DNA of 64,000 nt, taken from the IMG/VR virus record IMGVR_UViG_3300028490_000001, positions 14,677-78,676 of that record, one strand, 5' to 3'. Position numbers and translations under genes: made by a program. This stretch comes from a virus (lineage: Duplodnaviria > Heunggongvirae > Uroviricota > Caudoviricetes > Schitoviridae). Positions 44,650 to 58,427 of this stretch are shown here, piece after piece; position 1 is the stretch's first letter; the number at the start of each line of letters is the position of its first letter. Below the pieces are notes generated by a model that did no database searches, had not been told where the DNA came from, and was given only the letters and a program-made list of their open reading frames with translations.

Positions 44650-45300
44650 TATCATTGGATAATTTTATTGGCCGTAGGGCATGTCTGCGGACAAGAAAAT
44701 ACTAACCGTAAAACGAGAGATTATGCACGGTCAATAATCACACCTCTCACCATGGGTCCACAACATCCAACTGGACGTTGATGGACCCCCGTATTATGTG
44801 CCATTCGTCTAAATGTAGGACCTCCGCCTTAATAGCCGGATAATGCTGGTTAGAGTCCAGCATGGTAACACCGTAAAACGGGCAGGTTGTATCCACGGAA
44901 GAAATACCGACTACCTGTCAGTATAAACGGTTTTCCTGAGATGTCCCGTAGACTGCTTTAATGTCGAAAGAAATCATCCGTGATTGGTCTCCACACGTAA
45001 AAGTGGGACCGCCAAAAGAAAACTATTCCACAGAACCATCTCTATGTAGATGTTTGTATGGAGTCGTTGGGGTCAGACTCGTCGCAAAAATATCCTAGGC
45101 AGCATGCCTTAATCAACAAAACCGGGTTTACCGGATGAAGTTTGTTATTTAAATAATGTATTCTAAATGTCACCAATGTAGAAGAAAAACTCACGCAGTG
45201 ACCTGGAGCATGGCTTGGAACTCGCCTTCTTTTCAACATCCAGTTAAAGACGATTAGTAAAGACAGCGGTAGATTTTCTTGATTGACAGATTCTTACAAC
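44650..45300. ncRNA. About 650-nt GC-enriched, ORF-free, highly structured region immediately upstream of the tRNA cluster; candidate large structured non-coding RNA
   Basis: No ORF over 60 aa on either strand. Many local helices, e.g. GGGTCCA...TGGACCC, GCTGG...CCAGC and GGTCTCC...GGACC. Sits next to tRNA genes. Confidence 0.3.
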
Positions 45301-45450: not shown

Positions 45451-45525
45451 GTCATGTTAGCTCAGTTTGGTAGAGCACTCCCACTGATAAGGGAGAGGTC
45501 AATGGTTCAAATCCATTATGTGACA
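45451..45525 (+). tRNA. tRNA (75 nt) with a canonical cloverleaf but an apparent 8-nt anticodon loop (ACUGAUAA); identity unresolved (GAU/UGA-type)
   Basis: Acceptor GTCATGT/ATGTGAC, D-arm GCTC-AGTTTGGTA-GAGC, anticodon stem CTCCC/GGGAG, T-arm AATGG-TTCAAAT-CCATT. Confidence 0.55.
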
Positions 45526-45677
45526 CACAAATAGTCATGAAGGTAACAGACCATGCAAGGGTGTCGTGAGCATCCTAGAAAAATTCATTGCTGGAATGAT
45601 AACCAAAAGCAAGAGTGTTTTGAAATAGATTCACAAACTTATCAGAGAGTCTACTGTTGGACTCTCGAACTATATAT

Positions 45678-51967: not shown

Positions 51968-52300
51968 ATGCCATGTTACGACCCACGCCCTAACTATGAC
52001 CATGCAGAAAATGCACACCTGAGAGACGAATCAAGACAGAGGGAACTTTATGTTCGCCAACTTGAATCAATGCTTTGTGCAATGTGTAACGAGGTTATAA
52101 ACCTAGACACAACAGAAAAGAGAAAAGAAGAAATTCTAGACAGAGCAACAAGCAATGGAAAATCTTTAGATATTCATGCATGGTTTAAGCTGCATCTAGA
52201 GGCAGATGTCAAGAGGCTTGTTGTTACTGGAGTCAATAGAGATTCATCTATCCACGAAATTCTTCTATACAGAAGAATGGAAGAACTAAAAACAAAATAA
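51968..52300 (+). CDS. Hypothetical protein (110 aa)
   Basis: ORF track. Confidence 0.3.
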   Translation: MPCYDPRPNYDHAENAHLRDESRQRELYVRQLESMLCAMCNEVINLDTTEKRKEEILDRATSNGKSLDIHAWFKLHLEADVKRLVVTGVNRDSSIHEILLYRRMEELKTK

Positions 52301-52444
52301 AAACTATTTCGGTTTCACTTCTTAGAAAGGAAGTTGTGTAATTTTATAGGGTCACTACTTTAGTGACTTATCCCGATGTAGCTACTTAGGATATGAGCGG
52401 ATACGTTCATTCAACCAAAAAATATAAAACACAAAGGAGCCACT

Positions 52445-52888
52445 ATGGCTATGGGAATCAAAGACGTTGCTAACGTACTGTTAGACGGAAATAAGGCAGC
52501 ATTCAAAGCGAATGCATCAAGAAGAGCAGGTTCAATGTTCAACGAAAGAGTTGCAGAAGCAATCACACCAAGACTACCTGCAATGGTAAGAATGAGTGGA
52601 GCAACTGAGCAACCTTGGTTTAAGTTTGTACTTGCAAATGCAGTAGCTGGAGCAATTATCAAATTTGGTTACACAAATGAGAAATTACTTCTTCTTGCAG
52701 ATGCAGGTGTAAATGCAGCAAATGATGACTTTCTTGGAAGCTTCGACTTCGAGGGGATGGTTAATGGCCTTATTGATGGCATTGACGTATCGGGTCTTAC
52801 TGAGGCAAGTGATTCAGTTAGAGAAACAGCGTCCGCAGGACTTAAAAAAGCTAGCGAAATGGTAGACCCTGACGCTAAAACAGCATAA
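52445..52888 (+). CDS. Ala/Gly-rich hypothetical protein (147 aa) immediately upstream of the peptide/E1/JAB cassette
   Basis: ORF track; strong RBS 'AAAGGAG'. Confidence 0.4.
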   Translation: MAMGIKDVANVLLDGNKAAFKANASRRAGSMFNERVAEAITPRLPAMVRMSGATEQPWFKFVLANAVAGAIIKFGYTNEKLLLLADAGVNAANDDFLGSFDFEGMVNGLIDGIDVSGLTEASDSVRETASAGLKKASEMVDPDAKTA

Positions 52889-52898
52889 AGGATAAATC

Positions 52899-53024
52899 AT
52901 GGCATCAATGGCAGATTTAGTAAAAAAAGCGGCAGCATCAGCTAACCCGACAACACCAGCACCAAGCGTTCAAGTAGCAGACACATCGTCTCTTACAGCG
53001 AACAGCTCAAGTGGTAGAGCATAG
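52899..53024 (+). CDS. Small peptide gene (41 aa: MASMADLVKKAAASANPTTPAPSVQVADTSSLTANSSSGRA), not in the ORF track because it is under 60 aa
   Basis: RBS 'AAGGATAAATC' followed by ATG. Followed by an 8-bp stem inverted repeat (53058-53081). Lies directly upstream of the E1-like gene. Confidence 0.35.
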   Translation: MASMADLVKKAAASANPTTPAPSVQVADTSSLTANSSSGRA

Positions 53025-53116
53025 CGAAAGCATAATCTACTAAATAAAAGTAGTTAGACACAATGCATCGCAAGGTGCATTGTAATGTAACTACTAAAAA
53101 AAATAAGGACAATAAA

Positions 53117-54181
53117 ATGCAAAAAGCAATACCGATTAACAATCTAATCTTTGAAAAAATAAAGTTTAGATATGACTTTTATAACGCAGATAGAGCAGTT
53201 GGAAACGCAGGTGGAGGAAAATTGTTGCTTGACACATTTTATCCATTCATTCTCGCAACACAAATATTAGGACACGCTCGAAATACAGCAGCAGGAAGAA
53301 CCAACGCTCCAGCAATAGCCAGAAGCACTGGAAATATGAGAACAGGATATGCAATCTCAGAGAGAATTTCTAATGAACTAGGATGTAAAAAACTACACAT
53401 ATCTGAACTCATTACAATGCTAGGATACACCAAAACTGATATCTCAAAACTACTACAACATGTGAAAAATAAATCTTTCAACTTGGTTCTTGTAGGTCTT
53501 GGTGGTACAGGCTCCAACTTCCTACACTGGACATACGAAATGTCTCAATGGGTAGGTAAAGATTTGATTTTCAATACTATGTTCTCATATGATGATGATG
53601 ACTTTGATATTCCAAACATGTTGAGAATACCATTTGAGCCTAACTTTGTTGGCGAACAAACATCATCAAAGAAGGTAGATTGTATTCCTCCGAAATTCAA
53701 ACAAATTGCAAACAACTTCAGACTTAAAGATATGAGACTTACTGCTTATGATGTAGACAATACAAGACTTGGTTCACACCAGACTACATTAATTTATGGT
53801 GCACCCGACATAGCAACAAGAAAATGGTTGTCTGATTCAGAATATACATTCATCGCTGCAACACACAGAGACTCTGAGTTCTCACTGGTAGAGAATCCTG
53901 CCGTAGACGACGAGTTAATGATGGAAACGTATGGAAAAATAAACGTATCCAAGTTTATGCTGAACCACCTAACTATGACTATTAAATTCCTGGAGCACCT
54001 AAGAGACAGAGACAGAGTACTCGGGGGTTCAACTGAGACACAAATATTGAGAGAAGATTTTGATACTCTATATGCTAACCAGCTAGCTTTTGGCTTCAAA
54101 GCTGGGGCAAAAAGACTATCAATCCATAGCTCTAACGACACACAAAACATAGACTTACCAGAGGAGAACGGAAATGAGTAA
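53117..54181 (+). CDS. ThiF/MoeB-family E1-like adenylyltransferase (about 354 aa from the RBS-supported ATG 53117)
   Basis: Rossmann 'LVLVGLGGTGS' (MoeB 'VLIVGLGGLGC'), then 'SYDDDDFDIPNMLRIP' (MoeB 'LLDFDVVSLSNLQRQ'), then 'YDVDNTRLGS' (MoeB 'DCTDNVATRQQLN'). Confidence 0.7.
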   Translation: MQKAIPINNLIFEKIKFRYDFYNADRAVGNAGGGKLLLDTFYPFILATQILGHARNTAAGRTNAPAIARSTGNMRTGYAISERISNELGCKKLHISELITMLGYTKTDISKLLQHVKNKSFNLVLVGLGGTGSNFLHWTYEMSQWVGKDLIFNTMFSYDDDDFDIPNMLRIPFEPNFVGEQTSSKKVDCIPPKFKQIANNFRLKDMRLTAYDVDNTRLGSHQTTLIYGAPDIATRKWLSDSEYTFIAATHRDSEFSLVENPAVDDELMMETYGKINVSKFMLNHLTMTIKFLEHLRDRDRVLGGSTETQILREDFDTLYANQLAFGFKAGAKRLSIHSSNDTQNIDLPEENGNE

Positions 54182-55766
54182 TATGCTTAGCTTAAAACCA
54201 ACACCTATGCAAAAAATATATGAAAATACATGTCTTGAATTAGTAAGAGAACTAAGTAAAGACCTTGTTAAAGATGTGCCTACTGCAGATTCATTTACAT
54301 CAGTAAATGGATTAGGTAATGCCGTTGAAGAAATAAATTTCACAGACGCAACACAGACTCTTATGTCTAAATATCATAACCCTTATATGCACAGAAATAA
54401 AGATGGAAGCTTTAGAGCATGGGCAATGTTTAGAGATTTTTTCGACATAACAAAAGTAGGTGACGCAAACCTATCAATAAATCAAGCGAAAGAAATGCTT
54501 GCTGGAATCTATAAGGAATCAAAAGATTCACTATATGGTGTACTTCTCATGGATGCAAAGAGAGGAAAAAAGAAACAAATAGTAAATCTTCTTCATCCTG
54601 TAGTTGTGCACAACCTAAACCAGGAAGAATTAGATTTCAAATTAGATGAACAAATATGGACAATGGCTATTTACTCATTTAAAGATAATAAAAAAGATGT
54701 ACTCAAGGCTGATTTCCCACAAATATATGACAAAGAAAACTATACACTTGAAATTGCAAACATACTTGCATCTATTGATATTCCATCACTGTACTACACG
54801 GAGAATAAAGATTTTGAAGTCGACATCATAGATGATATGTTTGTGCTCAAGTATCAAGAGATAAAAACATTAAAAGAGTCTGGTGAAGTACTGAAAGATT
54901 CAAAAGGTGGAAGAAGCTATATTGTTCCTTGTCAAGTAATAAATGTTGGAGGAGTAGCGTTCCCATACTATGGAAGTATCTACTCAACCAAAGGTCTAGC
55001 ATGGAACATTACACCACTAATGTCAGCAAACATCTCTCATCCTGAAGGACAAAGCACAAATAAGGGAATGAATGGTGGTTCTAGAATCTGTACTCACAGT
55101 GGAAACAGTAAAACAAGAGCAGGGGTATCGTCACTGAACCACTGTAATATTACATCTCCTCTAAACAGTGACTGTATGGCTCCAGGCTCAATGAGCTACT
55201 CTGAAGCTTGTATAACTGCTTCCGTAGAGTTACTACTAGGAGAAGAGTTCGAGTCAGCAGCAAACAAAGCAGACAAGGCATTAACGTTTCAGGAATTTGT
55301 GGAGACGAATGACGGGGCTAGTAAAAAGCAATACCTAAAGTACATCAAAGATAGAATCGCACACAAAATGAATGAAGCAGAGGCTCCAGAACCAGAAGAA
55401 GTACCGATGGAAGAAAGATTTCCTGAAGTATACGATACATCAAAATGGACAAACTATGATGAGAATCAATTAAGAGGATACCTTAATGGTGACGTCACCT
55501 ATGTAGGAGATTTCGAAGAGCCAAAGATATGGATTGATTCAGTATGGCGTAACTTAAATTCGAAAAAAGCACTTGAATGGTTAGAGAACAGAGAAGAAAA
55601 TGAAAGAATAGAAGTTGACAATCCCGTACCTCCTGTTCCTAATGTACTAACAACAAATTCACCAACAGAATTAGCTGAAATGACGGAAGAAGACTTTCAG
55701 GATGCTATTGATGGATTAATTGGAGACGCAGATGCAGAACCAACACAACCTGACGGAGAAAGATAA
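54174..55766 (+). CDS. Large protein (530 aa) co-transcribed between the E1-like and JAB genes; weak E2/UBC-like 'HPEG...G..RIC' signature; function unknown
   Basis: Overlapping start/stop with both neighbours. 'ISHPEGQSTNKGMNGGSRICTHS' loosely resembles the E2 HPN...C active-site loop. Confidence 0.3.
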   Translation: MSNMLSLKPTPMQKIYENTCLELVRELSKDLVKDVPTADSFTSVNGLGNAVEEINFTDATQTLMSKYHNPYMHRNKDGSFRAWAMFRDFFDITKVGDANLSINQAKEMLAGIYKESKDSLYGVLLMDAKRGKKKQIVNLLHPVVVHNLNQEELDFKLDEQIWTMAIYSFKDNKKDVLKADFPQIYDKENYTLEIANILASIDIPSLYYTENKDFEVDIIDDMFVLKYQEIKTLKESGEVLKDSKGGRSYIVPCQVINVGGVAFPYYGSIYSTKGLAWNITPLMSANISHPEGQSTNKGMNGGSRICTHSGNSKTRAGVSSLNHCNITSPLNSDCMAPGSMSYSEACITASVELLLGEEFESAANKADKALTFQEFVETNDGASKKQYLKYIKDRIAHKMNEAEAPEPEEVPMEERFPEVYDTSKWTNYDENQLRGYLNGDVTYVGDFEEPKIWIDSVWRNLNSKKALEWLENREENERIEVDNPVPPVPNVLTTNSPTELAEMTEEDFQDAIDGLIGDADAEPTQPDGER

Positions 55767-57577
55767 TGAATAAAAAAATACAGAAACCAGCAGTAATAGT
55801 AGAAAGAATAACAGACGGAGTAGACACTAACAACTTTGGTGTAATGTTTCACTCAACAAAATCAATTGAATCATTTCAGCAACGCTCAGGCATGTCTGGT
55901 GCATACACTACTGAATATCAACATCATTATATTGCATTGATTGCAAGACTTAATGCTGGTGCACAAACACTAGACCTATGTATCCCACTTTGTATGTTTA
56001 ATTATCATCAAGAGGTAGCAGGAGCATCCGTAGAGTTTAATCTTGCTGAAGTATCAACTGCAAATGCTGATGCTCAAGAATTAGCTATGAAGAAATTTAA
56101 AGAGTTCGAACAGACTGAAATGTACAAGACAATACTTTCTATGGGCTTTACTGAATTCATCATAGAAGGAATGCATTCAATACATGCTCACCCAAATGGT
56201 ATAAATAGATTCTCAGGGACAGACCTCAGAGAAAATATAAACCATCCTGGAGTAAACTTTCCATTAAATACTGGGACCAATGTTGCAAACTTTGCATCAA
56301 TCATCCAGCATAAAGAAGGCTTTGCTCAAATCATTCACACAGAATACAGAATGTTTAACGGCGTAGAGCTTGGAGAAAGAGAATATAAGAAGGGCAGAAC
56401 ATTATCAGTAGTTAGAGGATACGATGTGCCAGAGCCTGAACCTTACGTGATTCCTGAACCTGGACTCATTGATGCACTATTTGGAACAAAGCCTGTAGCC
56501 CCACCAAAGCCTCTACCTGAAAAGAAGAGAGCAAACTACTGTCTACGCGATGGATTCATCGGAGCAGAAGAAGCGACAATCTCTAAGCTAGAAAAAGAAA
56601 TGATGGACATGTGGGTTAATTGTCCTTTCGAAATAGACACAAGTCTCGTACTTAAAACAAATGTACTTAAGGGGAGAGGACGTCTACTTGCACCTGTTAC
56701 AAAATTTAAAAATGAGCAGGTAAATGGCAAGGGAAAAAAGAAAGCCGAAGAGATAAACGCAGGACTCTTCGGCACTTGGGGAAAAACAGATGGTAAAACT
56801 GAACCATCGTTCAATCAGAAAAAAGAGTTTTTAAAAACAAGAGGTTTCACTGAAAAAGATTTCCTGGTTCTAAGAATCGAAGAAGTGTGTGATGAATATA
56901 CTTATGAAATTCATGCAAAAGAACAGGAAGAACAGGCTGGTACAGAACCAACACTTAATAGTATGAAACAATATCTTGTAGATAGTGAAGCATTTACATG
57001 GCTAGATTTCCAAAATATTGAAGATGAAGAGATTAAAAATTTCTACTGGCTTGAAAGACTCGATGAAATCGAAGATGAACAGGCAGGTATCGAATACGAA
57101 GAAGCAGAAACAAGCCAAGAAGATATGATTTCATATTTAATAAACACAGGGTTCACAGTATTCGAACTTAAAAATATGGATGAATCTGAAATTAAAGAAG
57201 CATATGAATTAAATTTTAGATTCGAAATGGAAATAGAAACTCAACTTCCAGCTACAGAAAAAGAAGAAACAATTGAGTTACCCTCTGAGGCAAAAATGAA
57301 AGAATACTTATGTAACATAGGTATGTCCGAAGCAAGAGTAAACAGTATGTATCCGGATGTATTACTAGATACATACCTAATAAACAGAAGTAAAGCCGGA
57401 CTTGAACCAAGTGATGATGAACAAGACAATCACTTCTCTAGAGCTCAAATGGAAAACCTCCTTGTAGGAGATAATATAGTTTCAGATGCAAAACTTAAAA
57501 CATTAAGTAATGAAAAAGTATTGTTAATGTTCAATGACGTATACGAATTAACAGACGAGGATTATAAGAATGCCTAA
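55766..57577 (+). CDS. JAB/JAMM (MPN+) metallopeptidase-domain protein (603 aa) with a long acidic repeat-rich C-terminal region
   Basis: Exact JAMM motif 'E...H-A-H-PNGINRF-S-GT-D' (HxHx7Sx2D) at about aa 125-160 ('FTEFIIEGMHSIHAHPNGINRFSGTDL'). Confidence 0.65.
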   Translation: MNKKIQKPAVIVERITDGVDTNNFGVMFHSTKSIESFQQRSGMSGAYTTEYQHHYIALIARLNAGAQTLDLCIPLCMFNYHQEVAGASVEFNLAEVSTANADAQELAMKKFKEFEQTEMYKTILSMGFTEFIIEGMHSIHAHPNGINRFSGTDLRENINHPGVNFPLNTGTNVANFASIIQHKEGFAQIIHTEYRMFNGVELGEREYKKGRTLSVVRGYDVPEPEPYVIPEPGLIDALFGTKPVAPPKPLPEKKRANYCLRDGFIGAEEATISKLEKEMMDMWVNCPFEIDTSLVLKTNVLKGRGRLLAPVTKFKNEQVNGKGKKKAEEINAGLFGTWGKTDGKTEPSFNQKKEFLKTRGFTEKDFLVLRIEEVCDEYTYEIHAKEQEEQAGTEPTLNSMKQYLVDSEAFTWLDFQNIEDEEIKNFYWLERLDEIEDEQAGIEYEEAETSQEDMISYLINTGFTVFELKNMDESEIKEAYELNFRFEMEIETQLPATEKEETIELPSEAKMKEYLCNIGMSEARVNSMYPDVLLDTYLINRSKAGLEPSDDEQDNHFSRAQMENLLVGDNIVSDAKLKTLSNEKVLLMFNDVYELTDEDYKNA

Positions 57578-58427
57578 TTTAGAACAAGAGACACAAGAGA
57601 CAAAATTCAACTTAAAAAGAGAGATAATAGCTGGAACACAATATGTATCTGGATATGAAAATACAGAAGACAAATATGTAATTTCTGCATCAATGGTCGG
57701 AAACGACCCTTTGCAAAACTACTTAACAATCATACATGGAAAACAAGTAGATGTAGAAATATCTGATGCAACGCTTGGGACAATATTTCATTTAGGTATG
57801 GAAGAATTGATGGTTAGAAGAGTAAGAGAGGCGAATTCCCCTGTAATTGGTGTTGAAAAATCAATGCACATGGAATTACCTAATGGATGGATAATGTCAG
57901 GTACTGCAGACTTAGTTACTAAACAAGATGCAGCTACACTAAACATTCACGATTATAAACTTACAAAAACCTACGCACTAAAAATGCTTAAGTCATCTCT
58001 TTCATCTCATAATTATTCAAAACAAATGAGAGTATTAAAAACATTATTGAAGAATGAAGTTGATAATTCAGTAATAAAAAAATATAAAAATATAAATATG
58101 AAAATAGAAATATTTGTAAAAGACAGCAAGGCTGTAAATTTTGAGCCTGTTCTTACAACGGTTGATGTACCAAACGCAAATGGAGCAGATGATGCAGCAG
58201 CATCAGAAGTATTAATCGCAGAAGTAGTTCAAATTACAGACTCGCTACAGTCATATATTGAAGGTGGAACAATTCCTCCAATCTGTGAAGACAGATGGCC
58301 TAGAAAAGTAAAAGACAAAGTAATACCTACAAGATGTGCATTTTACTGTTCACATGGTAAAGCCGGATTGTGTCCACACTATAATCCATCAACAAGACAA
58401 GAAGCTACTAGATTAGCAAACTGGTAA
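57570..58427 (+). CDS. Cas4/RecB-family PD-(D/E)xK nuclease with a C-terminal Cys cluster
   Basis: Motif II 'GTADLV', motif III 'IHDYKLTK', and C-terminal 'C-x15-C-x3-C-x7-C' (CEDRWP...RCAFYCSHGKAGLC). Confidence 0.6.
   Translation: MPNLEQETQETKFNLKREIIAGTQYVSGYENTEDKYVISASMVGNDPLQNYLTIIHGKQVDVEISDATLGTIFHLGMEELMVRRVREANSPVIGVEKSMHMELPNGWIMSGTADLVTKQDAATLNIHDYKLTKTYALKMLKSSLSSHNYSKQMRVLKTLLKNEVDNSVIKKYKNINMKIEIFVKDSKAVNFEPVLTTVDVPNANGADDAAASEVLIAEVVQITDSLQSYIEGGTIPPICEDRWPRKVKDKVIPTRCAFYCSHGKAGLCPHYNPSTRQEATRLANW

What the first reader, a model, noticed from the sequence alone, without database searches (positions are those of the whole stretch)
52899..57577. Phage-encoded ubiquitin-like conjugation cassette: small peptide + ThiF/MoeB E1-like + large unknown (E2-like?) + JAB/JAMM peptidase
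Four tightly coupled genes with overlapping stops and starts. The first is a 41-aa peptide. The second is an E1-like protein carrying the Rossmann GxGxxG 'LVLVGLGGTGS', the 'DxDxh..SNLxRQ'-like 'DDDDFDIPNMLRIP', and 'DNTR'. The third is a 530-aa protein with a weak HP(N/E)...C E2-like loop. The fourth is a 603-aa protein with an exact HxHx7Sx2D JAMM motif. E1 and JAB together are the hallmark of prokaryotic Ub-like conjugation/deconjugation modules (CBASS Cap2/Cap3, Bil-type systems, ThiS/MoaD-JAB operons). Finding it in a lytic-phage replication region, with no CD-NTase nearby, suggests a phage-owned protein-tagging or de-tagging system. It could be counter-defence against host Ub-like/CBASS conjugation, or modification of virion proteins. 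The N-terminal approx. 130 aa of the E1-like protein (with Cys in 'NELGCKKLHI') could also be a minimal E2 fused to E1, as in Cap2. The Ala/Gly-rich 147-aa protein upstream (52445-52888) is a possible target.
Basis: partly seen in the sequence, partly recalled or inferred. Interest (0 to 1): 0.85.

Follow-up and report, generated by a model that had tools for sequence, protein, structure and literature searches.

The report
Phage-encoded peptide-tagging enzyme cassette
An uncultured N4-like phage carries a conserved gene set (a 41-residue peptide ending in a buried glycine, an E1-type activating enzyme, an unknown protein with one invariant cysteine, and a JAMM metallopeptidase) that looks like a stripped-down ubiquitin-style system using a short linear peptide instead of a folded ubiquitin; nothing like it is annotated in any cultured phage.

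The parts
52445..52888 (+). 147-aa protein with a DUF7566 C-terminal-type domain. It is an accessory gene and a candidate target or partner, co-transcribed with the peptide gene upstream of the hairpin.
   Evidence: Pfam DUF7566 at E 1.4e-13, matching profile positions 226-334 of 336. PHROGs 4263 and 16673 are of unknown function. The gene sits directly upstream of the peptide gene in the window and in L001-L008, L011-L015 and L026. In L016 it lies downstream (E 1e-15). It was not found within the flanks held for L017-L024. Homologues occur in T5-like phages without E1 or JAB.
52899..53024 (+). Gene for the 41-aa precursor peptide MASMADLVKKAAASANPTTPAPSVQVADTSSLTANSSSG|RA. It has an N-terminal amphipathic helix-like segment, a T/S/A/P-rich linker and a conserved core ending in Gly39 (codon 53013-53015). 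A two-residue tail follows, which I predict is removed.
   Evidence: An AAGGA Shine-Dalgarno sequence lies 8 nt upstream. A homologous small ORF with a Shine-Dalgarno sequence lies upstream of the E1 gene in all 19 loci read. All end in [S/K/A]-G plus 1-8 variable residues. Codon differences are 18 synonymous against 7 non-synonymous versus L012, and 10 against 1 in the core.
53049..53095 (+). Stem-loop in the 92-nt gap between the peptide gene and the E1 gene. It is a probable attenuator or an mRNA 3'-end stabiliser that sets a high peptide-to-enzyme ratio (inferred).
   Evidence: MFE -24.7 kcal/mol, z -6.0 against dinucleotide shuffles. An unrelated but equally placed hairpin occurs in 13 of 13 loci folded, with z from -2.5 to -6.1. 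It has the strongest z of the four gaps of at least 35 nt on this strand between 46 and 61 kb. Most are followed by an A-tract rather than a U-tract, so they are not canonical intrinsic terminators.
53117..54181 (+). E1/ThiF-like adenylating enzyme (354 aa from the likely start; the ORF opens at 53063). An N-terminal helix carries the invariant Arg36-Tyr37. A family-specific helical insert of about 90 aa follows, then a Rossmann domain with GxGGxG (53489-53521) and D/E..N..R (53588-53632). There is no conserved Cys.
   Evidence: AlphaFold model with pLDDT 87. Foldseek top hits are ThiF 1zkm, MccB 3h9g, AclA 9egb, Uba4, UBA5, PaaA and Cap2. The profile against PDB finds UBA5 at E 0.05, aligned on the nucleotide motif. 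Pfam ThiF hits 24 of 40 members. Invariant residues are R36, Y37, D57, G145, G147, G148, N185 and R188.
54174..55766 (+). 530-aa protein of an unannotated family. It has an N-terminal alpha/beta domain with N138-x-x-H141-P (54585-54599). A helix plus four-strand meander follows, and then a loop with invariant N286 and C306 (GGSRIC, 55074-55100) and LNHxN (55128-55166). The C-terminal part is variable and includes a degenerate CBM5/12-like hairpin (55479-55556). I propose it as the cysteine acceptor or transferase for the activated peptide.
   Evidence: 34 close homologues and 246 clusters at E <= 1e-3 among 1.84 billion representatives. Invariant residues over 76 diverse members are G122, N138, P264, Y266, N286, C306 and S328. 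H141 is also invariant in 12 deep cassettes. No known fold or family matches. The gene always lies between E1 and JAB.
55766..57577 (+). 603-aa JAMM/MPN+ metallopeptidase. The catalytic domain spans about aa 1-215, with Glu50 and HAHPNGINRFSGTD (56183-56224). A Pro-rich linker follows (56429-56527), then a conserved middle domain (about 56537-56689), then five acidic helical repeats of about 32 aa each (56819-57547).
   Evidence: H140, H142, S150, D153 and E50 are invariant in 27 homologues and in 10 deep cassettes. Pfam Prok-JAB hits 21 of 27 members, best 0.0046. The C-terminal length varies from 368 to 603 aa among homologues.

Best explanation
This is a phage-encoded system for activating the C-terminus of a small peptide and conjugating it. 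It is built on ubiquitin-like logic but from non-canonical parts. The steps below are marked as shown or inferred.

(1) The short peptide is made in excess. It shares a two-gene unit with the DUF7566 protein and is separated from the enzyme genes by a hairpin. The anatomy is shown; the effect on expression is inferred.

(2) The JAMM peptidase removes the 1-8 unconserved residues after the invariant Gly, exposing a C-terminal glycine. This is inferred, by analogy with QbsD/QbsE, CxnF/CxnE and BubC.

(3) The E1-like enzyme binds the peptide and adenylates the Gly carboxylate with ATP. It probably grips the peptide's conserved N-terminal helix with its family-specific N-terminal insert. The fold and the intact ATP-binding residues are shown; the substrate is inferred.

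(4) The E1 has no conserved cysteine. The acyl-adenylate is therefore attacked by the only invariant cysteine in the system, Cys306 of the 530-aa protein, which is flanked by invariant Asn286 and paired with invariant His141. This gives a thioester (inferred).

(5) The peptide is passed to an amine, most likely a lysine, on a phage or host protein. This leaves a roughly 38-residue flexible tag with a free N-terminal helix, more like Pup than like folded ubiquitin. The JAMM enzyme may also reverse the tag. The target is unknown; the co-expressed DUF7566 protein is one candidate.

I consider steps 2-3 likely (about 0.7). Steps 4-5 are the favoured but unproven continuation (about 0.45).
For: - E1 fold with intact nucleotide-binding residues.
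- Complete and invariant JAMM motif plus the upstream Glu.
- All 19 peptides read have an invariant Gly followed by a tail that varies in length and sequence even between close relatives (GRA, GK, GH, GLK, GVSYK), while the preceding core is under strong purifying selection.
- JAMM trimming of residues after the C-terminal GG, before E1 adenylation, is documented or proposed for QbsE/QbsD and CxnE/CxnF (PMC5925218). A peptidase-E1 fusion does the same job in Bub (PMC11601596).
- The core gene order peptide, E1, Cys-protein, JAMM is kept wherever the contig is long enough to show it, down to 27% E1 identity.
- E1, Cys-protein and JAMM are translationally coupled.
- Cys306 is the only invariant Cys in any of the three enzymes.
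- A hairpin follows the peptide gene in 13 of 13 loci. The mccA/mccB terminator is a precedent for control of the substrate-to-enzyme ratio (PMC4231749).
- CBM5/12-like modules appear on the C-termini of both Cys-protein and JAMM homologues, which hints at a shared binding target.
Against: - There is no biochemical evidence and no identified target.
- The peptide is far too short for a beta-grasp fold, so it is not a Ubl in the structural sense.
- The 530-aa protein shows no significant similarity to E2 or to any solved structure. Its role as a thioester carrier rests only on the invariant Cys and on gene order.
- E1-like enzymes that act on short linear peptides (MccB, PaaA) make natural products, not protein tags, and they are among the top structural hits.
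- DUF7566 was not found in the flanks held for the most distant cassettes, and it exists without the system in T5-like phages.
Confidence: 0.5

Rival explanations
1. RiPP-like pathway. The small peptide is a precursor, with an N-terminal leader helix and a C-terminal core. The E1-like enzyme activates its C-terminus, as MccB or PaaA do. The peptide is then converted into a free modified peptide or peptide-nucleotide that acts inside the infected cell or after lysis. The JAMM enzyme and the Cys-protein serve as tailoring or processing enzymes.
For: - MccB, PaaA and AclA, E1-like enzymes solved with short peptide substrates, are among the best structural matches.
- The peptide has a leader/core-like layout and is not a beta-grasp.
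- The hairpin between the precursor and enzyme genes mirrors mccA/mccB (PMC4231749).
- The E1 has a family-specific N-terminal insert that could act as a peptide clamp.
Against: - There is no invariant C-terminal Asn, which MccB chemistry requires. The invariant residue is Gly, and it is followed by a disposable tail.
- No exporter, immunity gene or typical RiPP tailoring gene is in the cassette or among its conserved neighbours.
- JAMM peptidases are typical of Ubl and sulfur-carrier systems, not of RiPP clusters (my own knowledge).
- Foldseek aligns only about 240 columns, the adenylation domain, and not MccB's clamp. TM normalised by target is 0.36 for MccB against 0.52 for ThiF.
Confidence: 0.2
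2. Sulfur-carrier peptide. After trimming and adenylation, the C-terminal Gly is converted to a thiocarboxylate. Cys306 of the 530-aa protein would act as a persulfide relay or a sulfur-inserting enzyme. The peptide then donates sulfur to a phage-specific thio-modification of a nucleotide, DNA or cofactor.
For: - JAMM plus E1 plus a small carrier with a masked C-terminal Gly is exactly the layout of the QbsCDE and CxnE/F sulfur-carrier pathways.
- The E1 lacks a catalytic Cys, like ThiF and MoeB.
- The cassette always sits among nucleotide and DNA-metabolism genes: DUF3310, ThyX, helicase, nuclease and polymerase.
Against: - All known sulfur carriers are beta-grasp proteins ending in GG. This one is a 38-residue linear peptide ending in S-G.
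- No rhodanese, cysteine desulfurase, PP-loop or radical-SAM partner is in or next to the cassette.
- The 530-aa protein matches no known sulfurtransferase.
Confidence: 0.1
3. A counter-defence device aimed at host Ubl-type immunity (type II CBASS, Bil, Bub). The JAMM enzyme strips host conjugates. The E1, peptide and Cys-protein act as a decoy or competitor. This concerns the biological role and could coexist with the best explanation.
For: - The known bacterial E1/JAB conjugation systems are antiphage systems (PMC11601596; PMC10097602, listed).
- The gene at the end of locus L006, from a related phage, carries a precomputed Pfam Acb2_Tad1_hairpin hit about 7 kb downstream of its cassette. 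This suggests pressure from nucleotide-signalling defences.
Against: - PADLOC models, including Cap2/Cap3-type proteins, do not match any cassette protein at E <= 1.
- A pure de-conjugase would not need a co-conserved peptide, an E1 and a Cys-protein.
- No host is known, so nothing can be said about its defences.
Confidence: 0.1
4. The genes are neighbours only because early and middle phage genes are tightly packed. There is no common pathway.
For: Phage genes routinely overlap. The next gene, a PD-(D/E)XK nuclease, also overlaps the JAB gene by 8 nt but is not conserved in that position.
Against: The four core genes stay together, in the same order, in otherwise different genomic surroundings down to 27% identity. 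The combination of E1, JAMM and a Gly-terminated small product is a recognised functional triad.
Confidence: 0.03

Closest known systems
JAMM-trimmed sulfur-carrier pathways (QbsC/QbsD/QbsE of thioquinolobactin; CxnE/CxnF of chuangxinmycin; CysO/Mec+)
   Same: A small gene product carries its reactive C-terminal Gly masked by a few extra residues. A dedicated JAMM peptidase is predicted to remove them. An E1/ThiF-type enzyme without a catalytic Cys then adenylates the exposed Gly (PMC5925218).
   Different: The carriers in those pathways are 66-100-aa beta-grasp proteins ending in GG. Their E1 is usually fused to or paired with a rhodanese, and the pathways are bacterial and make thio-metabolites. 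Here the carrier is a linear peptide of about 38 residues ending in S/K/A-G. There is no rhodanese or desulfurase. A novel Cys-protein is obligatory. The owner is a lytic-type phage.
Bacterial antiphage conjugation systems: type II CBASS (Cap2/Cap3), Bil (BilABCD), Bub
   Same: E1-type activation plus a dedicated peptidase, in one compact operon tied to phage-host conflict. Cap2 is among the structural matches of the E1. In Bub, a peptidase fused to the E1 first cleaves a precursor to release the modifier, and that E1 lacks a catalytic cysteine.
   Different: Those systems have a recognisable UBC-fold E2, fused or separate, and either a beta-grasp Ubl or the CD-NTase C-terminus as modifier. 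They are encoded by bacteria. Here no E2 fold is detectable, the modifier is an unstructured peptide, PADLOC models do not match, and the cassette is phage-borne.
MccB / PaaA-type E1-like RiPP enzymes
   Same: An E1-like adenylation domain acts on a short, ribosomally made linear peptide encoded just upstream. An intergenic hairpin raises the precursor-to-enzyme ratio. Extra N-terminal sequence on the E1 may hold the peptide.
   Different: MccB needs a C-terminal Asn and makes a peptidyl-nucleotide. PaaA cyclises Glu-Glu. Neither system has a JAMM peptidase or a conserved Cys-protein, and both have export or immunity genes. Here the invariant residue is a penultimate-region Gly with a disposable tail.
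Pup (prokaryotic ubiquitin-like protein) tagging in actinobacteria
   Same: This is a functional analogy only. The modifier is a short, intrinsically disordered polypeptide with a Gly-containing C-terminus that must be processed before ligation, and its N-terminal part is left free on the target (my own knowledge, not tested here).
   Different: Pup is activated by glutamine-synthetase-like PafA/Dop through a Glu side chain, not by an E1. There is no JAMM and no Cys intermediate. No sequence relationship was seen.
PRTRC cassette (ParB-related, ThiF-related) and the PRK06153 ThiF family
   Same: These gave the best NCBIfam hits for the E1 (NF004804 at E 0.003; TIGR03736 at E 0.0085), limited to the nucleotide-binding motif. 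They are mobile-element-borne ThiF-like genes of unknown function.
   Different: The scores are far below the cut-offs (15-17 bits against 145-340). None of the other PRTRC protein models matched the peptide, the Cys-protein, the JAMM or the DUF7566 protein at E <= 1. There is no ParB.
Lambda/T1 tail-assembly TAPI (Ub-like) and TAPK (JAB + NlpC/P60)
   Same: This is the only phage-borne JAB/Ub-like association in the 2006 census of prokaryotic Ub-related systems. It also has a conserved C-terminal Gly predicted to be the JAB cleavage point (PMC1779556).
   Different: It has no E1, it lies in the tail module, and its Ub-like domain is a beta-grasp. The present cassette lies in the replication and early-middle region on the strand opposite the structural genes.

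Membership tests
E1 / ThiF / MoeB adenylating-enzyme superfamily (372-aa protein) | Rossmann-type adenylation fold shared by ThiF, MoeB, MccB and the Uba enzymes | tested here: met
   AlphaFold model with pLDDT 87. Foldseek against PDB gives 170 hits at E <= 1e-3, and all of the 50 listed are E1-superfamily members (ThiF 1.7e-7, MccB, AclA, Uba4, UBA5, PaaA, Cap2, UBA6/7).
E1 / ThiF / MoeB adenylating-enzyme superfamily (372-aa protein) | Gly-rich loop GxGxxG, an acidic residue at the end of beta-2, the N..R phosphate-binding motif and an N-terminal Arg finger | tested here: met
   G145, G147, G148, N185, R188, R36 and Y37 are invariant. Position 177 is D or E in 12 deeply diverged cassettes. 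The region aligns to the UBA5 nucleotide motif.
E1 / ThiF / MoeB adenylating-enzyme superfamily (372-aa protein) | Score above Pfam ThiF (PF00899) gathering threshold | tested here: not met
   The window protein scores 14.6 bits against a cut-off of 28.1 (E 0.018). 24 of 40 family members match at E <= 0.1, best 2.4e-6. It is a divergent branch: a superfamily member, but not a member of the curated family model.
Canonical ubiquitin-type E1 (Uba1, Cap2, BilD) | Catalytic cysteine that forms an E1~modifier thioester | tested here: not met
   There is no invariant or near-invariant Cys in 40 homologues or in 12 deep cassettes.
JAMM / MPN+ metallopeptidases (603-aa protein) | E...HxHx(7)Sx(2)D zinc-binding and catalytic motif | tested here: met
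   E50, H140, H142, S150 and D153 are invariant in 27 homologues and in 10 deep cassettes. One distant member (L024) has a spacer of 9 instead of 7.
JAMM / MPN+ metallopeptidases (603-aa protein) | MPN fold, or a score above the Pfam Prok-JAB threshold | tested here: inconclusive
   Prok-JAB matches 21 of 27 members, but only at E 0.0046 to 0.5, over about 20-30 residues around the motif. The profile against PDB sequences finds no JAMM entry.
E2 / UBC ubiquitin-conjugating enzymes (530-aa protein) | UBC fold | tested here: not met
E2 / UBC ubiquitin-conjugating enzymes (530-aa protein) | Sequence-profile relationship to UBC or Prok-E2 families, and an HPN motif before the catalytic Cys | tested here: not met
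   hhalign of 76 diverse members against a PDB-validated canonical E2 profile gives probability 1.1%. No UQ_con or Prok-E2 hit appears in Pfam scans of 27 and 76 members. His289 is lost in distant members. Asn286 and Cys306 are invariant but lie 20 residues apart. Bacterial E2-like profiles could not be compared directly.
E2 fused to the N-terminus of E1 (Cap2-like architecture) | Conserved catalytic Cys in the N-terminal domain | tested here: not met
   Cys108 of NELGCKKLHI is replaced by S, A, V or T in homologues. The N-terminal insert is mainly helical.
Ubiquitin-like (beta-grasp) modifiers and sulfur carriers (41-aa peptide) | Beta-grasp fold of about 65 residues or more | tested here: not met
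   The peptides are 39-52 aa, of low complexity (A/S/T/P-rich) and without hydrophobic-core periodicity beyond the first 12 or so residues. This is a judgement from length and composition; no fold prediction was run.
Ubiquitin-like (beta-grasp) modifiers and sulfur carriers (41-aa peptide) | Conserved C-terminal Gly used for adenylation, often masked by extra residues | tested here: met
   Gly is invariant in all 19 peptides read and is followed by 1-8 non-conserved residues. The consensus is [S/K/A]-G rather than G-G.
MccB-type peptide-nucleotide RiPP systems | Precursor peptide ending in Asn | tested here: not met
   No peptide ends in Asn, and no Asn is invariant in the core.
Type II CBASS / Bil / other catalogued defence systems | Match to PADLOC models; presence of a CD-NTase or beta-grasp Ubl gene | tested here: not met
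   There are no relevant PADLOC hits at E <= 1 for any of the six proteins. No CD-NTase or Ubl domain appears in the neighbours scanned in the window and in five long related loci.
PRTRC cassette | Set of PRTRC A-F proteins plus ParB | tested here: not met
   Only a sub-threshold hit of the E1 to TIGR03736 was found (15.4 bits against a cut-off of 144.75). No other PRTRC model matched.
Enzymatic activities (adenylation, Gly-X cleavage, thioester on Cys306, isopeptide formation) | Direct biochemical demonstration | not testable with these tools
   This needs purified proteins or infected cells.

The most novel reading that the evidence does not exclude
Phages of several lineages encode their own protein-tagging system, one that evolved in parallel with ubiquitin and Pup. 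The modifier is an unstructured peptide of about 38 residues, matured by a JAMM peptidase and activated by a Cys-less E1. It is transferred through a previously unknown type of cysteine enzyme, not an E2, onto host or phage proteins. It might mark them for host proteases or re-programme them during takeover. This would be the first virus-owned E1-dependent conjugation system in the prokaryotic world and would define a new class of conjugating enzyme.
Probability: 0.35. Interest if true: 0.92.

Novelty: new variant of a known kind. Interest (0 to 1): 0.8.

Why it matters
E1-dependent conjugation in prokaryotes is currently known from cellular sulfur-carrier pathways and from three bacterial antiphage systems (CBASS type II, Bil, Bub). 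This cassette would put the same chemistry in the hands of the phage.

Two features have no precedent. The modifier is a short linear peptide rather than a beta-grasp protein. The obligatory third enzyme has one invariant cysteine and no detectable relationship to E2s or to any solved fold. That family has at least 246 clusters at 50% identity and no Pfam or PHROG entry.

The system is compact (four genes, about 4.7 kb) and its predictions are easy to test in vitro: cleavage after Gly39, adenylation of the trimmed peptide, and a thioester on Cys306. If it tags proteins, it opens a new chapter in phage takeover or counter-defence and offers a minimal, orthogonal peptide-ligation tool. If it instead makes a free modified peptide or a thiocarboxylate, it is a new phage-borne biosynthetic pathway.

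The cassette is missing from all 50,697 GenBank phage records searched. Among 185,579 species genomes it appears on a single short MAG contig. It would therefore not be found by work on isolates.

Tried and rejected
- Searches of GenBank phages with the cassette DNA (megablast) and with the E1 and JAB proteins (tblastn) found nothing.
- PHROGs, NCBIfam and PADLOC gave nothing usable for the peptide, E1, Cys-protein or JAB.
- PDB sequence searches with single proteins and with profiles gave only a marginal UBA5 hit for the E1 and nothing for the Cys-protein or JAB.
- E2 fused to the E1 N-terminus: rejected, because the Cys is not conserved.
- N- and C-terminal extensions of distant E1s and upstream proteins of distant cassettes have no Pfam domains.
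- A group I intron as the cause of the split JAB gene in L017/L018: there is no Rfam match.
- Literature searches for DUF7566, AclA, and a phage E1/JAB/peptide system found no description of this cassette.

Full report
OBSERVATION

The four ORFs exist exactly as listed: 52899-53024 (41 aa), 53063-54181 (372 aa), 54174-55766 (530 aa) and 55766-57577 (603 aa). The last three overlap by 8 and 1 nt. The next gene, a PD-(D/E)XK nuclease at 57570-58427, overlaps the JAB gene by 8 nt.

Four details need correcting.
- The E1 gene most probably starts at ATG 53117. It has an AAGGA ribosome-binding site there, and homologues begin at that point.
- 'DNTR' lies in a variable segment. The conserved equivalent is YGAPDIxTR at aa 245-253.
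- In the 530-aa protein, His289 of 'HPE' is conserved only among close relatives. Asn286 and Cys306 are the invariant residues.
- The peptide gene is not tightly coupled to the E1 gene. A 92-nt gap separates them.

CONTEXT

The window is phage DNA. A major head protein, a portal and a large terminase lie on the minus strand. The portal is about 44% identical to those of N4-like podoviruses. The cassette lies on the plus-strand early/middle arm, among DUF3310, a PD-(D/E)XK nuclease and a helicase.

Neither the cassette DNA nor the E1 and JAB proteins match any of 50,697 GenBank phage records. PHROGs has no family for the E1, the 530-aa protein or the JAB. In 185,579 species genomes the E1 was found once, on a 7.8-kb contig of a Guaymas 'Spirochaetes' MAG that also carries the DUF7566 gene. 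I take this to be a mis-binned phage fragment.

THE CASSETTE IS CONSERVED

The large protein collection holds 81, 34 and 39 relatives of the E1, the 530-aa protein and the JAB, often on the same contigs. I fetched 24 related loci. Wherever the contig is long enough, the order is small ORF, then E1, then Cys-protein, then JAB. This holds even where the E1 is only 27-30% identical and the surrounding genes differ, for example ThyX upstream, or DNA polymerase, a nucleotidyltransferase or a reverse transcriptase downstream.

A DUF7566-domain protein immediately precedes the peptide gene in the window's clade, which comprises L001-L008, L011-L015 and L026. In L016 it lies downstream. It was not found within the flanks held for L017-L024, where an unrelated protein of about 90-95 aa takes its place in L017/L018, L020 and L024. 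DUF7566 homologues also occur, without any E1 or JAB, in T5-like phages in or near the terminal-repeat early region. The core is therefore four genes, and DUF7566 is a clade-specific associate.

THE E1-LIKE PROTEIN

On its own the window protein is sub-threshold for Pfam ThiF (E 0.018), PRTRC_ThiF (0.0085) and PRK06153 (0.003). However, 24 of 40 family members hit ThiF, with a best E of 2.4e-6. The family profile finds UBA5 in the PDB, aligned on the nucleotide motif, at E 0.05. An AlphaFold model with pLDDT 87 retrieves only E1-superfamily structures: ThiF, MccB, AclA, Uba4, UBA5, PaaA, Cap2 and UBA6/7, at E 1e-7 to 1e-5.

Across 12 deeply diverged cassettes the following are invariant: the Arg36-Tyr37 pair, G145xG147G148, an acidic residue at position 177, and N185..R188. 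These are the ATP-binding elements of ThiF and MoeB (established knowledge). I therefore expect an active adenylase.

No cysteine is conserved anywhere in the family. An E1~thioester is thus unlikely. The Cys in NELGCKKLHI, proposed as a fused E2, is variable. A mostly helical insert of about 90 residues, specific to this family, sits between the Arg-finger helix and the Rossmann domain. It may hold the peptide. Foldseek did not align it to MccB's clamp.

THE JAMM PROTEIN

E50 and H140-x-H142-x7-S150-x2-D153 are invariant in 27 homologues and in 10 deep cassettes. 21 of 27 members touch Pfam Prok-JAB, but only weakly and locally. Profile searches of PDB sequences found no JAMM entry, and no model could be made. 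Membership therefore rests on the motif.

After the catalytic domain come a Pro-rich linker, a conserved middle domain, and, in the window protein, five acidic helical repeats of about 32 residues. The number of repeats varies among homologues.

THE SMALL PEPTIDE

All 19 peptides read carry a Shine-Dalgarno sequence and encode 39-52 residues with the same plan:
- a short amphipathic N-terminal segment (for example ADLVKKAAA or VQEAIAAALAA);
- a T/S/A/P/Q-rich linker;
- a conserved core such as ..SLxAxSxSG;
- 1-8 residues that are not conserved even between close relatives (RA, K, H, LK, VSYK, Y, Q, AK, C, LLA, DNSDRLDC).

Against L012 the ORF shows 18 synonymous and 7 non-synonymous codon differences. 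In the 13-codon core the figures are 10 and 1. It is therefore a protein-coding gene under selection.

A conserved Gly followed by a disposable tail is the signature of modifier or carrier precursors that a JAMM enzyme trims before E1 adenylation. This has been described or proposed for QbsE/QbsD and CxnE/CxnF (PMC5925218). In Bub systems, a peptidase fused to the E1 does the same job (PMC11601596).

The gap between the peptide gene and the E1 gene holds a strong stem-loop in 13 of 13 loci folded, with z from -2.5 to -6.1 and unrelated sequences. It is the most structured of the four sizeable plus-strand gaps between 46 and 61 kb. Most of these hairpins are followed by an A-tract and the E1 ribosome-binding site rather than by a U-tract. 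I therefore read them as an attenuator or a 3'-end stabilising element that keeps the peptide (and DUF7566) in excess over the enzymes. The mccA/mccB terminator is a precedent (PMC4231749). This reading is inferred.

THE 530-aa PROTEIN

This is the real unknown. A profile search of 1.84 billion cluster representatives found 246 relatives at E <= 1e-3. A distant one that I looked up (L024) sits in the same cassette. Over 76 diverse members only G122, N138, P264, Y266, N286, C306 and S328 are invariant. H141, Q254, T307, H323 and N325 are conserved at 90% or more, and H141 is invariant in the 12 deep cassettes.

MECHANISM

The best-supported chain is as follows.
1. The JAMM enzyme trims the tail after Gly39.
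2. The E1 adenylates the Gly.
3. Cys306 of the 530-aa protein takes the acyl group, helped by Asn286 and/or His141.
4. The peptide is transferred to an amine on a target, with the JAMM enzyme possibly reversing the modification.

I hold steps 1-2 at about 0.7 and steps 3-4 at about 0.45. The product would be a flexible peptide tag with a free N-terminal helix. In function this is closer to Pup than to ubiquitin, but that is an analogy only.

The rivals are as follows.
- A RiPP-like fate of the activated peptide (0.2). MccB and PaaA are top structural hits, but there is no terminal Asn, no exporter or immunity gene, and a JAMM peptidase is atypical for such clusters.
- A sulfur-carrier role (0.1). 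The gene triad is the same as in QbsCDE, but there is no beta-grasp, no GG and no sulfur-mobilising partner.
- A counter-defence role against host Ubl-type immunity (0.1). This concerns purpose and is compatible with the main mechanism.
- Mere adjacency (0.03).

COMPARISON AND NOVELTY

The E1 is a divergent member of the ThiF/E1 superfamily. The JAB carries the defining JAMM motif. The peptide meets the 'masked C-terminal Gly' criterion of Ubl and sulfur carriers but not the beta-grasp criterion. The third protein fails every E2 test available here.

The cassette is not PRTRC, because only a sub-threshold ThiF hit was found. It is not CBASS-II, Bil or Bub, because there is no PADLOC match, no E2, no Ubl and no CD-NTase. 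The 2006 census of prokaryotic Ub-related systems lists only the lambda/T1 tail-assembly TAPI/TAPK pair for phages, and my literature searches found no later description.

I class it as a new variant of a known kind: E1/JAMM-based C-terminal activation with a novel modifier type, a novel third enzyme and a viral owner.

LIMITS

- No structure was obtained for the JAMM protein or for any complex.
- The afdb50 library was unavailable.
- Bacterial E2-like profiles could not be compared directly.
- The host is unknown.
- There is no experimental evidence of any kind.

Noticed in passing
L017 8056-9772 (identical arrangement in L018): In this distant cassette the JAB gene is split exactly inside the JAMM motif. 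The first ORF ends ...SIHKHP*. A 109-aa ORF with its own Shine-Dalgarno sequence follows. The next ORF begins MRISKSTQRFSGIDL.... It looks like an intervening element, or a genuinely split enzyme, at the active site. Rfam finds no group I or group II intron there, and the inserted ORF has no Pfam domain.
   Followed up: partly
L022 5889-5964 (same layout in L023): A tRNA-Gln (anticodon TTG) gene sits in the gap between the peptide gene and the E1 gene, where other loci have a simple hairpin.
   Followed up: partly
L024 10896-11645; L020 9433-10182: In one sub-clade a reverse-transcriptase gene (Pfam RVT_1 in L024; an RT-like N-terminal sequence in L020) directly follows the JAB gene.
   Followed up: no
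window 45451-45526 and 44798-44870: There are two tRNA-like genes. Rfam scores the first at 56.5 bits, but ARAGORN reports an undetermined identity with an aberrant, two-base anticodon call. The second is just above the Rfam threshold at 31.6 bits and ARAGORN does not call it.
   Followed up: no
window 55479-55556; homologues P0137, P0146, P0153 (Cys-protein) and P0105 (JAB): CBM_5_12-type (chitin-binding-like) modules are appended to the C-termini of 7 of 27 Cys-protein homologues and inserted in one JAB homologue. The window protein has a degenerate copy (YLNGDVTYVGD...W). Two different enzymes of the cassette share this accessory module, which suggests a common binding partner.
   Followed up: partly
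C-termini of Cys-protein homologues (alignment A3, columns about 780-805): Many homologues end with an acidic/Gln-rich stretch followed by a short conserved tail...EQVVA...EGVA...EQITA...EMTA or ...ERTA. This may be a docking or degradation signal. The window protein lacks it.
   Followed up: no
window 56819-57547: The JAB protein carries five tandem acidic helical repeats of about 32 residues, with the pattern M-x-x-[YFL]-L-x3-G-[FM]-x(12-16)-Y. Their number varies among homologues. Weak single-member Pfam hits to UBA, RecX_HTH and Mnd1-HTH-type small helical domains appear.
   Followed up: partly
L009 5572-6357 (Erwinia phage KEY); also Pectobacterium My1 and Serratia Slocum terminal repeats: The DUF7566 domain of the 147-aa protein forms the C-terminal third of a protein of about 260 aa in T5-like phages. 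That protein is encoded in or next to the terminal-repeat pre-early region, near A1, A2 and dmp, and it is unannotated there.
   Followed up: partly
L006 13825-13832 (gene runs off the locus end): A related phage has a gene, cut by the end of the locus, with a precomputed Pfam Acb2_Tad1_hairpin hit (the anti-CBASS/Thoeris sponge family). It lies about 7 kb downstream of that phage's cassette.
   Followed up: no
window 52300-52445: The 144-nt gap upstream of the DUF7566 gene also folds into several hairpins (z -3.1). The DUF7566 and peptide genes are therefore bracketed by structured gaps and may form a separate two-gene expression unit.
   Followed up: partly
window 1-33000 (minus strand): The structural genes resemble those of N4-like (Schitoviridae-type) phages, with a portal 44% identical. 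Cultured N4-like phages have no homologue of the cassette. The window has no ORF of virion-RNA-polymerase size (the longest is 1156 aa), but the source contig is 89.5 kb.
   Followed up: partly
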